Shown: in pieces, positions 7,529 to 42,810 of the stretch
How positions within the stretch are numbered: position 1 is the stretch's first letter
How the letters are laid out: each line of letters starts with the position of its first letter
Origin: Candidatus Atabeyarchaeum deiterrae
GTDB taxonomy: Archaea > Asgardarchaeota > Atabeyarchaeia > Atabeyarchaeales > Atabeyarchaeaceae
NCBI GenBank assembly: GCA_037310415.1
Contig: CP147780.1
Coordinates: forward strand, 896,001 to 960,000
Direction of reading: 5' to 3'
DNA length: 64,000 nt
Translations under genes and position numbers: made by a program
Notes under the pieces: model-generated
The model's database searches: none
Told to the model about the DNA's origin: nothing
What the model saw: only the letters and a program-made list of their open reading frames with translations

Positions 7529-9031
7529 ATGGTGTTATTTGATGCCTTGGGTGTAGCTCCTAGCTCAATATTACTGTTCTCATTTCTGTTAATCTTTGCC
7601 GGCGCCATCCTTGTCTACGGACTTGGACGATCCACTAAGAAATATACAGGTTGGATAGCAGCAATAATCTCGCTAGTCTCAACTCTTCTGGTCATAGACG
7701 TAATTGTGCCCGCCACATCGGTTTCAGGCGTCATGGCAGGGCCGTATAGCTGGATCCCCCAGTTCCTGAATGTTGGACTATATGCAGATAGACTGAGTTA
7801 CCCTATTCTCCTGTTGATAAGCGCTCTCGGAACAATTACTCTGCTGTACTGTGCAGTTGACGCGAAAGAGATGGAAAACCCGGCGGCCTTCTATGCGAAT
7901 ATGTTACTGTTCATAGGTGGCATGCTCGGGGTACTGTTGTCTACGAACCTAATAGAATTCCTCCTGTTCTGGGAAGTAATGTTGCTTCCATCCTTCCTAC
8001 TTATCTCGATGTTTGGGGTGACGATCGAGAGAAAAGCTAGCGCCCTGAAGTACTTCCTGTACACCCATTTTGGGAGTGTCTTTCTATTCGCCGGAGTTTT
8101 CTTGATCGGATTACTTACAAATACATTCGATCTATACACTGGCCCTGCAGTATCTCCGATTAGAGCATTCTTGCCGACTGTAGCCCAAGCTGTGTTTGTC
8201 AGTGCCGTTGCCTTGATTCTTGTAGCATTCGTTGTGAAGATGGCAATTTTCCCTCTGCACACATGGCTCCCTTCGGCATACTACGACGCTCCGATTCCAG
8301 TGACGTTACTGCTCAGTTCAGCTATGACGAAGACGGCCGCGTATGGAATCGTGAGGATACTCTTGCTATTTCTCGCTCCACAGTTGCTCGACCTCAGACT
8401 CGGACTGCTGATAGTGGCTCTGATAACGATGTACTATGGCGGTATACTTGCATTGGCTCAAGATAACCTGAAAAGTATGCTTGCATACTCGAGCATGAGT
8501 CAAATGGGATACATACTGTTTGGATTTGCAGCGCTCAGCGTCTATGGTGTAAGTGGAGCTTTGTTCCACGTGATAAATCACGGTATAGCAATGGCCATAA
8601 TGTGGATCGCCTGTGGCATTCTCTTGAAGCAAGCGGGGACATTTGAATTCAGCAAACTAAGAGGGCTTGGCGCAAAGATGCCAATAACCACAATGTGCGT
8701 TGTGATAGCCGGACTGGGAATAGCTGGAACACCGCCATTGGCGGGCTTCTGGAGTGAATTACTGATCTTCTTGGGTGGGGTCTATTACAGCGCGATCTTG
8801 GTTCTTCTGGCTATTATAGCAACCGCCCTAACAGCAGGATACTATCTGTGGGCGATAAGGAGAATCTTCTTCGGCCCCATAAAAGCAAACTTGAAGAATG
8901 TCAAGGATGCCCCAGTGAAGATACAGTTACTCATGCTAGTGCTTGCATTCTTTGTTGTTATCTTCGGAATCTTACCAAACCTAGTCTTGGGAGTGTTAAC
9001 TCCAATCTACACGCCTCCTCCGTTGGCATAA
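7529..9031 (+). CDS. NuoM-like antiporter subunit
   Basis: FWEVML, KMAIFPLHTWLP, AYSSMSQMGY. Confidence 0.9.
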   Translation: MVLFDALGVAPSSILLFSFLLIFAGAILVYGLGRSTKKYTGWIAAIISLVSTLLVIDVIVPATSVSGVMAGPYSWIPQFLNVGLYADRLSYPILLLISALGTITLLYCAVDAKEMENPAAFYANMLLFIGGMLGVLLSTNLIEFLLFWEVMLLPSFLLISMFGVTIERKASALKYFLYTHFGSVFLFAGVFLIGLLTNTFDLYTGPAVSPIRAFLPTVAQAVFVSAVALILVAFVVKMAIFPLHTWLPSAYYDAPIPVTLLLSSAMTKTAAYGIVRILLLFLAPQLLDLRLGLLIVALITMYYGGILALAQDNLKSMLAYSSMSQMGYILFGFAALSVYGVSGALFHVINHGIAMAIMWIACGILLKQAGTFEFSKLRGLGAKMPITTMCVVIAGLGIAGTPPLAGFWSELLIFLGGVYYSAILVLLAIIATALTAGYYLWAIRRIFFGPIKANLKNVKDAPVKIQLLMLVLAFFVVIFGILPNLVLGVLTPIYTPPPLA

Positions 9032-22185: not shown

Positions 22186-23381
22186 CTATATCCTTCCTTG
22201 ATGGTTTCTTGGGTTGTTGAGTGATACTGCATTTCCCTGCAAGCATTTCCCTCGTATTCCTATTCTGTAGTGGCAATCGGGGCAGGTATTGTCTATCTGA
22301 TCAATTGCACAATATGCTATGCTCAGTCCACTGCGCTCTATCAAGAGATTGTTGCATATTGGGCAATAAGTATTCTCTCCTGGGTGCCCAGGCACATTTC
22401 CGAGGTAAACGTATCTCAAGCCTTCTTCTAGACCGATCTCCCTTGCTCTTTCCAGAGAGCTGATCGGAGTCTGCTGGGATAGACCAAGTGCCAATGCCTT
22501 GTGTGCAGCATAATATCTTGTGCAGTGCCATGGCACTTCAGCGCCCAGTTCATTTCTCATCCTAGACGCAATCAATCTAAGTATGGTTTCCTTGTCGTTG
22601 ACAGTGGGAATAACCAAAGTGACTACTTCGATGTGTTTCCCATACTTCTTCAATTCTCTCAGATTTCGCCAGACTATTTCGGCATCTACTCCGCAATACT
22701 TCCTTACGGCAATTGCGTCACCTTTTACATTCACACAGAAAGCATCACAGCCACTATTAACTATGAGTCTGAGCGCTTCTAATGTTGAATAGAGATTCGT
22801 TACATAGGTATTGTAAAGTCCCTTCTCCTTAGCTCTTCTCATCACGTCGAGGGAGTACTCGAAAAGAGATGTAGACGGTTCATTGAAAGAGAAGGATGTT
22901 CCATTGGAATGGGATCTCTTTGCTAGACTTACAAGTGTCTCTGGGTCTATGTAATTCGCATTGGAAGGGCTCGGGGGAGATTTGCTGACATCGAAATTCT
23001 GACACCTTGCCCGTCAAGATGCAACTTTCCGAAGGATGCACTTTGTCGCATCCTTGACTATGGGCATGTGAGATTACACCCGTAGCTCCCCACGGTCAAC
23101 GCCAAGCTTCCTGGCCAGAAATGAAAGAGCGGCTTCTTCTCAATTGGGTTCACGCTCATAGTTGAAATATCGCCGTATGTAACTGAATATAGTGTACCTT
23201 CGACGTTCATCTTAGTTCTACAGAAGCCTGCTTTTCCCTTGTCTATCGTACACCTTCGCTCACAGACGCCACATCTGACCCTTCCCCTTGACAAGCGCTC
23301 GTATAGCGGTGATTCTCTTACCCATTCTCTCTCAGTGAGACCTCTGTCCAAGCCCAAGAGTCTATTGCTCCTAATCTTCAC
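22186..23381 (-). CDS. AmmeMemoRadiSam-type radical SAM enzyme, spliced (exons 23381-23060 and 23006-22186; 380 aa)
   Basis: CGVCERRC, PIEKKPLFHF.PG, GCNLTCP|WCQN after intron removal, FNEP, YVYLGNVPG, TYCPIC. Confidence 0.9.
23007..23059 (-). other. 53-nt archaeal BHB intron in mRNA
   Basis: Canonical hBHBh': GCCC/GGGC central helix, AU|A and AA|G bulges, 13-bp intron stem. Confidence 0.88.
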
Positions 23382-41923: not shown

Positions 41924-42810
41924 TCACATTTGAGCACTCTTCAGAGCGTCCTTGCATTCACACTTTCTTTCCTTTGGAACCTTCGGTATCACGCTGAAAA
42001 GCAGCTTGTTGACGTCCTCAATGTTTTGCTTCATAGACTTCACGACCTGTTCCGCCGTCACTGGTTTCAAACCATAGACATCAGTATCAGTAGGCATCGC
42101 TATGTTGGCAAAGCATATCTCTGCTTCTCTGGCAAGAGCACATTCAGGATAGGCCGTCAGTGCGGGGCAAATCGGTTCTTCACCTAATTCCTTGCCTTTC
42201 CGACAACATCCCATCCTTGTCTCTTGTAGAAGAGGGACTCTGCTCTGGTTGAGAATCTTGGTCCTTCGATGCAAACGTACTCAAACGAGTCATGATCTCT
42301 GGAGTTCTCTTTGGCGTGAATCTTCATGCCCAGTTTGGTAGCCGTATCCATTATCGTCTTTCTAAGCTCACTGCAAAACGGCTCAGCGAATGCGATGTGT
42401 CCTACAATGCCTCCGTCGAAGAAGGTTTGGTTCATTCGTGGCGCTGCAGTGAAGGTGACTATCTGGTCGCATGCTACGAATTCGCCGGGTTTGATTCTGT
42501 CAGGCTGTAAGCTTCCCACCGCGGCAGGGCTAATTATTCGCGTGACGCCAAGCGCCTTCATGGCCCAGATGTTGGCCCTGAAGTTAATTTTATGCGGAGG
42601 TATTCTATGTCCTCTTTGATGCCTGACTAGGAAGGCTACTTTCCTATCACCAATGTAGCCGACAAAAACATTATCGCTGGTCGCTCCATAAGGTGTGTAC
42701 ACTTTGAGTTCCTTTGCTTCCTTCATTATCTTGGGGTCGTAGCTGCCTGAACCCGCGAAAATGCCAATCTCTGCGTTTTCATGTGGGTCTATTAAACCAA
42801 TCATGCACAT
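41924..42810 (-). CDS. mtaP: 5'-methylthioadenosine phosphorylase, spliced (exons 42810-42198 and 42159-41924; 282 aa)
   Basis: GSG, TPYG, RH..GH..PPH..N.RANI, EGPRFSTRAES, VVG|MTAYPE after intron removal, LAREAEIC, TD.D. Confidence 0.9.
42160..42197 (-). other. 38-nt archaeal intron with relaxed BHB/BHL motif in mRNA
   Basis: CGG/CCG helix, AA|A bulge, GGCAA/UUGCC intron stem, AC|U 3' site; excision gives GGA ATG ACG. Confidence 0.82.

What the first reader, a model, noticed from the sequence alone, without database searches (positions are those of the whole stretch)
42160..42197. 38-nt relaxed-BHB intron splitting the GMT active-site motif of MTA phosphorylase
The minus strand reads GUU GUC GGA A|AGGCAAGGAAUUAGGUGAAGAACCGAUUUGCCCCGCAC|UG ACG GCC. 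CGG pairs with CCG (the fourth position is a U-C mismatch), the 5' bulge is AA|A, the intron stem is GGCAA/UUGCC and the 3' site is AC|U. The exons can also pair as GUUGUC/GACGGC. Excision yields DVVG-M-TAYPE, the MTAP/PNP consensus, and a 282-aa protein. A 1-nt left shift would give Leu, so the BHB rule independently predicts the conserved Met. The relaxed motif implies a broad-specificity EndA (inference).
Basis: partly seen in the sequence, partly recalled or inferred. Interest (0 to 1): 0.9.

Follow-up and report, generated by a model that had tools for sequence, protein, structure and literature searches.

The report
tRNA-type mini-intron splitting Asgard mtaP
The only methylthioadenosine-phosphorylase gene of this Asgard (Atabeyarchaeia) archaeon is interrupted, inside the codon for its invariant active-site methionine, by a 38-base hairpin shaped like an archaeal tRNA intron, so the enzyme can very probably be made only after the mRNA is cut and re-joined, which published work has confirmed inside an archaeal coding sequence only for cbf5.

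Summary
Minus-strand mtaP (window 42810..41924) carries a 38-nt insert (42197..42160). Removing it joins A+UG and gives ...DVVG-M-TAYPE, with Met invariant in 49/49 homologues and no gap at the junction.

It is the only PNP/MTAP-family gene in the 2.76-Mb genome. It is not decaying: dN/dS is 0.02-0.04 in both exons while dS is saturated.

Eight Atabeyarchaeia-type orthologues carry an insert at the same site. Lengths are 35, 36, 37 (three), 38 (two) and 39 nt, and interiors are diverged. All other homologues are uninterrupted.

The exon-intron helices covary: 92% of cells pair, five pairs change on both sides, and 0/500 shuffles reach the score. One exonic synonymous site covaries with an intron base.

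The motif is relaxed: the central helix is 3 bp plus a U.C/U.G/U.U position, and the canonical outer helix does not form.

The genome encodes an (alpha-beta)2 EndA with the specificity-loop lysine, plus RtcB.

I verified three more split genes here: cbf5, a class-I aaRS and a radical-SAM gene.

No RNA data covered the locus, so splicing is inferred (about 0.8). The main rival is a two-piece enzyme restarting at NUG.

This scan has reported similar Asgard mRNA introns before on other DNA.

The parts
42198..42810 (-). mtaP exon 1 (Met1..Gly, plus the A of the junction AUG codon at 42198). The start shared with relatives is the ATG at 42804 (MIGLIDP).
   Evidence: ORF list. NCBIfam NF006334 profile positions 4-189, E 5e-70. 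PF01048 at 77.8 bits against a cut-off of 25.1. dN/dS 0.027-0.035.
42160..42197 (-). 38-nt BHB-type (relaxed) intron; contains an in-frame TAG; unique sequence in the genome.
   Evidence: Orthologues carry 35-39-nt inserts at the same site with diverged interiors.
41924..42159 (-). mtaP exon 2 (UG of the Met codon, then TAYPE...SAQM and the stop at 41926..41924).
   Evidence: NF006334 profile positions 192-266, E 1e-22. dN/dS 0.017-0.038 in the spliced frame.
42200..42203 (-). Central helix H, exon strand (UCGG).
   Evidence: Pairs with 42162-42165. Alignment columns 9-12 with 48-51. Column 10 (a synonymous site of the Val codon) covaries with intron column 50: C-G in 6, U.G in 1, U-A in 1.
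42162..42165 (-). Central helix H, intron strand (CCGC). The outermost position is U.C here, U.G in two orthologues and U.U in one.
42197..42199 (-). 5' bulge AA|A. The predicted cut lies between 42198 and 42197.
   Evidence: Unpaired in the single-sequence and consensus folds; invariant in 8 of 8 sequences.
42159..42161 (-). 3' bulge AC|U. The predicted cut lies between 42160 and 42159. The last intron base varies (C, U or G) among orthologues.
   Evidence: Symmetric to the 5' cut across the 4-position central helix.
42191..42196 (-). Intron stem h', 5' strand (GGCAAG).
   Evidence: Pairs with 42166-42171. Four of the 6 pairs change on both sides among the 8 orthologues; 94% of cells pair.
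42166..42171 (-). Intron stem h', 3' strand (UUUGCC).
42204..42207 (-). Exon-1 strand (GUUG) of the conserved outer exon-exon helix, one register off the canonical h.
   Evidence: Pairs with 42156-42159 in 8 of 8 sequences. The canonical register pairs in only 4% of cells.
42156..42159 (-). Exon-2 strand (UGAC) of the outer helix. Its first base, U 42159, is also the third base of the 3' bulge if the terminal G.U pair opens.

Best explanation
The insert is an archaeal endonuclease-type (bulge-helix-bulge) intron in the pre-mRNA of the single-copy mtaP gene.

Proposed mechanism. The transcript folds so that exon bases UCGG pair with intron bases CCGC (3 bp plus one non-Watson-Crick position). 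A 3-nt bulge AA|A follows, with a 6-bp intron stem on one side, and the bulge AC|U on the other side. The heterotetrameric (alpha-beta)2 splicing endonuclease cuts two bases into each bulge. RtcB joins the exons. The 38-nt intron is released, probably as a circle. The junction creates the AUG codon for the invariant active-site Met of the GMT motif and restores the frame, giving a 280-282-aa MTAP.

Shown: the anatomy; the exact restoration of the motif; purifying selection on both exons; insert-length variation at a fixed site; covariation of the helices; presence of the enzymes.

Inferred: that cleavage and ligation actually occur, and how efficiently.
For: (1) Excision at the symmetric BHB positions gives G-M-T. 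Met is invariant in 49/49 homologues and the junction aligns without a gap. The halves hit contiguous profile positions.
(2) It is the only PF01048 gene in the genome, and there is one match each in the two sister genomes.
(3) dN/dS is 0.02-0.04 in exon 1 and exon 2 separately, with dS 1.3-2.1.
(4) Eight orthologues at 85-91% protein identity carry inserts of 35, 36, 37 (three), 38 (two) and 39 nt at the identical site. The 39-nt insert is in frame but holds a TAG. Interiors are diverged and flanks conserved. More distant Asgard and other homologues are uninterrupted.
(5) Covariation on alignment A2: 92% of cells pair, against at most 55% when partners are slid. Five pairs change on both sides. 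0/500 shuffles reach the covariation score. Series such as G-C/G.U/A-U appear in the intron stem, and C-G/U.G/U-A links an exonic synonymous site to an intron base. RNAalifold independently returns the same helices.
(6) The last intron base is C, U or G, as expected for a non-coding bulge base. The alternative cut one base to the left would give Leu or Val at an invariant Met.
(7) Machinery. The EndA alpha subunit is closest to the Aeropyrum pernix alpha subunit (E 2e-46), has the catalytic His, and has a Lys aligned with K44 of the specific loop. The beta paralogue has Thr in place of the His. RtcB is intact. Literature: only (alpha-beta)2 and epsilon2 enzymes with that loop cut relaxed motifs, and Asgard archaea have the loop (PMC5829648).
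(8) Other genes in the same genome are split in ways a restart cannot rescue. In cbf5 the catalytic Asp codon is split G|AU by 41 nt. In a class-I aaRS, PF00133 positions 2-73 and 74-414 are separated by 31 nt. In a radical-SAM gene the CPWCQN motif is split by a 53-nt strict BHB insert, and the sister genome G001 has the exact intron-less sequence.
(9) 92-95% of the tRNA genes of these genomes carry introns, often at non-canonical positions (PMC11291895).
Against: There is no RNA-level evidence. The motif is not canonical: the fourth central pair is U.C in five of the eight sequences, and the canonical outer helix is absent (4% paired). In this species and in G001 the short-context minimum-energy fold prefers a competing exon-exon helix that buries the 3' site. 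Short-context z-scores are unremarkable, from +0.8 to -2.5. The eight sequences are close relatives, so the shuffle statistics overstate independence. The codon spanning the 3' boundary is UUG in 6, GUG in 1 and CUG in 1, and UUG and GUG are possible start codons.
Confidence: 0.82

Rival explanations
1. Split gene. Two polypeptides are made: an N-fragment of about 207 aa ending a few residues into the insert, and a C-fragment of about 78 aa re-initiated at the NUG codon that spans the 3' boundary, so the initiator Met stands in for the conserved Met. The two fragments then assemble into an active enzyme.
For: The boundary codon is UUG in six orthologues and GUG in one. JGI gene calls annotate exactly such a 78-aa ORF from TTG. 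In L105 the N-fragment stop overlaps the GTG (GTGA). Purifying selection on both halves fits this reading as well.
Against: This species has CUG, and none of the eight has AUG. No purine-rich ribosome-binding motif lies within 15 nt upstream in any orthologue, and that stretch is base-paired in the conserved fold. The reading does not explain the covarying exon-intron helices, the invariant AAA bulge with a fixed fourfold-degenerate Gly third position, or the 35-39-nt length window. cbf5 and the radical-SAM gene in the same genome are split inside codons with no possible restart.
Confidence: 0.1
2. Pseudogene. mtaP was inactivated by a small insertion and is decaying.
For: Automated annotation yields a truncated 207-215-aa product in all close relatives.
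Against: dN/dS is 0.02-0.04 in both exons, including exon 2 read in the spliced frame, at saturated dS. The interruption is retained at one site in eight lineages with no further frameshifts or stops. It is the only copy in the genome.
Confidence: 0.02
3. Translational recoding: ribosomal bypassing (hopping) or programmed frameshifting across the insert.
For: A hairpin follows a Gly GGA codon and a nearby stop, which superficially recalls phage T4 gene 60.
Against: The unspliced RNA has no AUG at the landing site. Met arises only by joining A to UG. There is no matching landing codon. Insert lengths fall in all three phases. Any frameshift route would place 11-13 unconserved residues inside the GMT active-site motif.
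Confidence: 0.02

Closest known systems
cbf5 pre-mRNA intron of Crenarchaeota (Aeropyrum, Sulfolobales, Desulfurococcales; Watanabe 2002; Yokobori 2009, PMC2738675)
   Same: A short intron inside a coding sequence, flanked by a BHB motif that is often relaxed. It is attributed to the relaxed specificity of the heterotetrameric EndA. It is lineage-specific, with gain and loss.
   Different: A different gene (a metabolic enzyme, not an RNA-modification enzyme) and a different phylum (Asgard, Atabeyarchaeia). Splicing here is not experimentally shown. This genome also has a cbf5 intron.
Non-canonical tRNA introns with relaxed HBh'/BHL motifs (Marck and Grosjean 2003; PMC5829648), very abundant in Atabeyarchaeia (PMC11291895; bioRxiv 10.64898/2026.10.13.758758)
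   Same: The same predicted recognition element (3-nt bulge, roughly 4-bp helix, intron stem), the same size range and the same enzymes.
   Different: The host RNA is an mRNA. [quoted passage not shown]
BHB intron in the 5' UTR of Haloferax volcanii HVO_1309 (PMC7714728)
   Same: EndA acting on an mRNA, confirmed there in vitro and by circular-RNA sequencing.
   Different: That intron lies in the untranslated leader and does not interrupt the reading frame.
HAC1/XBP1 unconventional splicing (IRE1 cleavage, RtcB or Trl1 ligation)
   Same: Spliceosome-independent, structure-guided excision of a short mRNA intron, changing the frame, with RtcB-type ligation.
   Different: A different endonuclease (IRE1), a different recognition element (twin stem-loops), and stress-regulated. 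Any regulation here is unknown.

Membership tests
Canonical archaeal hBHBh' intron | [quoted passage not shown] | tested here: not met
   The central helix has 3 standard pairs plus U.C (5 of 8 sequences), U.G (2) or U.U (1). The canonical-register h pairs in 4% of cells.
Relaxed BHB intron (HBh' type) | One intact 3-nt bulge, a central helix and the intron helix h'; the second site lies in a disrupted bulge or loop at the symmetric distance | tested here: met
   AAA bulge, CGG/CCG, and a 6-bp h'. The 3' cut lies two bases after the 4-position H strand. The motif is conserved with covariation in 8 orthologues.
Relaxed BHB intron (HBh' type) | Excision at the rule-given sites yields a functional RNA | tested here: met
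   It creates the AUG for a Met invariant in 49/49 homologues, restores the frame and leaves no gap.
Relaxed BHB intron (HBh' type) | The host encodes a broad-specificity EndA ((alpha-beta)2 or epsilon2, with the specific-loop Lys) and an RNA ligase | tested here: met
   Alpha subunit closest to A. pernix alpha, with His and a Lys aligned to K44. Beta subunit lacks the His. RtcB is intact. The rule comes from PMC5829648.
Relaxed BHB intron (HBh' type) | The intron is physically removed from the RNA (junction reads, circular intron, in vitro cleavage) | not testable with these tools
   No RNA run held the locus. The laid contigs did not cover it, and no full-length spliced protein is on record.
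MTAP / PNP family (Pfam PF01048; NCBIfam NF006334, TIGR01694) | Full-length match to the family profile, with the GMT and DxD active-site motifs | tested here: met
   PF01048 scores above its cut-off on exon 1 alone. The halves cover NF006334 positions 4-189 and 192-266. GMT is restored and PTDTD lies in exon 2. The equivalog cut-offs could not be scored on the joined protein, so MTA rather than general purine-nucleoside specificity is inferred from named homologues at 64% identity.
Group I / group II self-splicing introns | A ribozyme core of hundreds of nucleotides with an Rfam match | tested here: not met
   The insert is 38 nt, and the window has no Rfam match at gathering score.

The most novel reading that the evidence does not exclude
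The mtaP intron may be one element of a genome-wide regime. In this reading, Atabeyarchaeia (and, by this scan's earlier notes, other Asgard lineages) routinely interrupt single-copy housekeeping genes, often inside active-site codons, with tRNA-type introns. Expression of core metabolism, translation and RNA modification would then depend on EndA/RtcB pre-mRNA splicing. These introns are gained and lost between sister species: the radical-SAM intron is present in G000 and G002 and absent in G001.
Probability: 0.55. Interest if true: 0.85.

Novelty: new member of a known kind. Interest (0 to 1): 0.65.

Why it matters
In the papers I could search, endonuclease-type splicing inside an archaeal coding sequence is confirmed only for cbf5 of Crenarchaeota, plus one 5' UTR in Haloferax (PMC2738675, PMC7714728). 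Neither Atabeyarchaeia genome paper mentions mRNA introns (PMC11291895; PMC11529989 was listed but not read for this).

A conserved, covarying intron in the sole mtaP gene of an Asgard archaeon extends the phenomenon to a metabolic enzyme and to the archaeal lineage closest to eukaryotes.

It also shows that standard gene callers mis-annotate such genes as truncated or split ORFs: 207-215 aa plus a 78-aa piece. That distorts metabolic reconstructions.

The locus gives a compact, testable substrate for the specificity of Asgard EndA.

Tried and rejected
RNA evidence:
- The look-up of sequencing runs listed no RNA holder of the locus.
- Logan contigs of four metatranscriptome-labelled runs (X1, X2, X4, X7), laid on 20 kb around the gene, gave no cover of mtaP and only three short 90-95% fragments elsewhere.
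- The protein search returned no full-length (about 282 aa) form at more than 85% identity that could have come from a spliced transcript.
- All three are blanks, not evidence.

Genome-wide census. I scanned both strands for BHB geometry (12-130 nt) combined with ORF joining and a hexamer coding score. Counts at the true register equalled those at registers shifted by 1-2 nt, roughly 8,300 against 8,200-8,600 per strand after coding filters. Sequence alone therefore cannot separate real mRNA introns from chance motifs at gene boundaries. I kept only the background motif frequencies from this work.

Synonymous-site conservation around the junction is only modest. The four flanking fourfold codons are identical in three species against a 39% baseline, but other windows in the gene score as high.

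Repeat or mobile-element origin: the intron has no other copy in the genome.

tRNA and Rfam scans of the window found nothing.

Look-alike stretches in earlier scan notes: none for this locus.

Full report
**What is there.**
- On the minus strand, an ORF from window 42810 stops after ...WDVVGKARN (208 aa). The rest of the protein continues in another frame down to 41924.
- Removing 42197..42160 (38 nt) joins ...GUC GGA A to UG ACG GCC... and gives one 849-nt ORF...QGWDVVGMTAYPECAL....
- The two pieces match adjacent positions of the MTAP equivalog profiles: NF006334 4-189 and 192-266, TIGR01694 2-179 and 181-239.
- In an alignment with 48 homologues fetched from genomes, the junction has no gap and the Met is invariant, 49/49.
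- Only one pair of cut sites gives Met. One base to the left gives Leu and one base to the right gives Lys (read directly from the sequence).

**Organism and context.**
- The window lies in a 2.76-Mb single-contig genome.
- Its closest relatives are the complete genome 'SRVP18_Atabeyarchaeia-1' and MAG LC30, so it is an Atabeyarchaeia (Asgard) archaeon.
- The published description of these genomes reports introns in 92-95% of tRNA genes, often non-canonical and multiple. It says nothing about introns in protein genes (PMC11291895).
- ARAGORN finds only 24 tRNAs, nearly all interrupted.

**Is the gene alive and unique?**
- PF01048 hits one place in the genome, and the exon-1 protein query found a single match in each of the two sister genomes.
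- Across three species, Nei-Gojobori dN/dS is 0.027-0.035 for exon 1 and 0.017-0.038 for exon 2 in the spliced frame. dS is 1.3-2.1.
- Exon 2 carries the DxD base-binding motif.
- A decaying copy is excluded.

**Comparative anatomy.**
- Eight distinct orthologues at 85-91% identity carry an insert at exactly this site. They are three genomes, three JGI metagenome contigs, and two further lineages reached through protein clusters.
- Insert lengths are 38, 39, 35, 37, 37, 37, 38 and 36 nt.
- The 39-nt insert is in frame but contains a TAG. The others shift the frame.
- Interiors differ by substitutions and indels. The flanks (GGAAAG.C ... CC..A.|UGAC) are kept.
- The next-closest homologues (64% identity or less; Jord-, Freyr-, Thor- and Hel-archaeia, Bathyarchaeia and others) are uninterrupted 283-287-aa proteins.
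- The insert was therefore gained in the Atabeyarchaeia lineage and has been retained since.

**RNA structure.**
- Using the symmetric BHB register, the central helix is exon UCGG with intron CCGC. The 5' bulge is AA|A, the intron stem is GGCAAG/UUUGCC, and the 3' bulge is AC|U.
- On the 8-sequence alignment A2, the structure (outer helix, H, h') pairs in 92% of cells, against at most 55% for slid partners.
- Five pairs show changes on both sides, and 0/500 shuffles reach the observed covariation score.
- Examples of covariation:
  - Second pair of h': G-C in 3, G.U in 1, A-U in 3.
  - Third pair of H: C-G in 6, U.G in 1, U-A in 1. Here the exon partner is the synonymous third position of a Val codon.
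- RNAalifold, given no structure, returns the same helices.
- The motif is not canonical:
  - The outermost H position is U.C in 5, U.G in 2 and U.U in 1.
  - The canonical outer helix pairs in 4% of cells.
  - A helix one register off, GU(C/U)G with UGAC, pairs in all eight.
  - If its terminal G.U opens, the standard 3-nt 3' bulge results (inference).
- In this species and in G001 a competing exon-exon helix is the short-context minimum-energy fold. Short-context z-scores are unremarkable. The 81-nt context gives z = -3.2.
- A motif of this quality occurs at 4e-4 of random site pairs in the genome.
- The last intron base is C, U or G. That fits a bulge base. It does not fit a coding position, which would read Leu, Leu or Val at an invariant Met.

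**Machinery.**
- There are two EndA paralogues.
  - One has the catalytic His. It is closest to the Aeropyrum pernix alpha subunit (3P1Z_B, E 2e-46) and aligns a Lys with K44 of the Crenarchaea-specific loop.
  - The other has Thr at the His position, as expected for a structural beta subunit.
  - Both carry the N- and C-terminal EndA domains.
- RtcB is intact.
- According to PMC5829648:
  - Only (alpha-beta)2 and epsilon2 enzymes with this loop cut relaxed HBh', hBH and BHL motifs.
  - Asgard EndAs have the loop.

**Is mRNA splicing plausible in this cell?** I checked three leads from earlier notes of this scan.
- cbf5 is split by 41 nt inside the catalytic Asp codon (G|AU, restoring GTLDPRV).
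- A class-I aminoacyl-tRNA synthetase is split by 31 nt between PF00133 positions 73 and 74.
- A radical-SAM gene in this same window is split by 53 nt (window 23059..23007) with a strict motif: 4-bp H, 7-bp h', 4-bp h. Excision restores CNLTCP-W-CQN.
  - Sister genome G001 has the uninterrupted CCC TGG TGT at that spot.
  - G002 has a diverged 52-nt insert.
  - This is a natural intron-less allele that confirms the predicted boundaries.
- None of the three can be rescued by re-initiation.

**Rivals.**
- The serious rival is a two-piece enzyme. The boundary codon is UUG or GUG in seven of the eight sequences, and JGI calls a 78-aa ORF from it. Against it:
  - This species has CUG, and none has AUG.
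  - The upstream stretch is pyrimidine-rich and base-paired.
  - The covarying exon-intron helices and the invariant bulge would have no explanation.
- Pseudogene and recoding readings are contradicted.

**What is missing.** No RNA run covered the locus and no spliced-form protein is on record. Excision is inferred, not shown. My sequence-only genome census failed.

**Comparison and novelty.**
- Mechanistically this is the cbf5 type of archaeal pre-mRNA intron (PMC2738675), in a new gene and a new phylum.
- The papers searched report no Asgard mRNA intron.
- Earlier follow-ups in this scan reported similar introns in other Asgard genomes, some with RNA-derived contigs lacking the intron. I did not test those.
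- Verdict: observation confirmed, interpretation supported, new member of a known kind, confidence about 0.8, interest 0.65.

Noticed in passing
window 23007-23059 (minus strand); gene 22186-23381: A radical-SAM (AmmeMemoRadiSam-like) gene is split by a 53-nt insert with a strict BHB (4-bp H, 7-bp h', 4-bp h) inside the CxxxCxxC motif. Excision gives CNLTCP-W-CQN. Sister genome G001 is uninterrupted at exactly this point, and G002 has a diverged 52-nt insert with Tyr instead of Trp.
   Followed up: partly
genome C1:395677-395717 (+), locus L058:378-418: cbf5 is split by a 41-nt insert inside the catalytic Asp codon (G|AT, restoring GTLDPRV). Exon 1 carries the DKCLD domain and exon 2 carries TruB_N, TruB_C_2 and PUA. 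It is the same gene as the classic crenarchaeal mRNA intron, here in an Asgard archaeon.
   Followed up: partly
genome C1:457150-457180 (+), locus L059:451-481: A class-I aminoacyl-tRNA synthetase (Val/Ile/Leu type) is split by 31 nt that give an immediate TAA. The halves match PF00133 positions 2-73 and 74-414 (...GIDRNG|LPIE...). Five bases (CGGAU) are repeated at both boundaries, so the exact cut is ambiguous from sequence.
   Followed up: partly
L106:1343-1579; P0001-P0004: Public gene calls for Atabeyarchaeia-type mtaP are truncated 207-215-aa proteins plus a separate 78-aa ORF started at the TTG that spans the 3' splice site. The annotation therefore hides the intron.
   Followed up: partly
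window 41927-41960 (minus strand): The C-terminus of the MTAP carries a CxC motif (...KERKCECKDALK...), conserved in all three genome orthologues. From memory, this recalls the CXC disulfide motifs of hyperthermophilic archaeal MTAPs. Not examined.
   Followed up: no
whole genome (C1): ARAGORN in intron mode finds only 24 tRNA genes, 20 of them with introns of 12-893 nt, many outside position 37/38. The real set must be larger and more fragmented than standard tools report.
   Followed up: no
L104:22-579, L106:1-560: In two metagenomic orthologous loci an Endo_dU (PF01949) gene lies directly upstream of mtaP. I did not check whether this neighbourhood is kept in the window.
   Followed up: no
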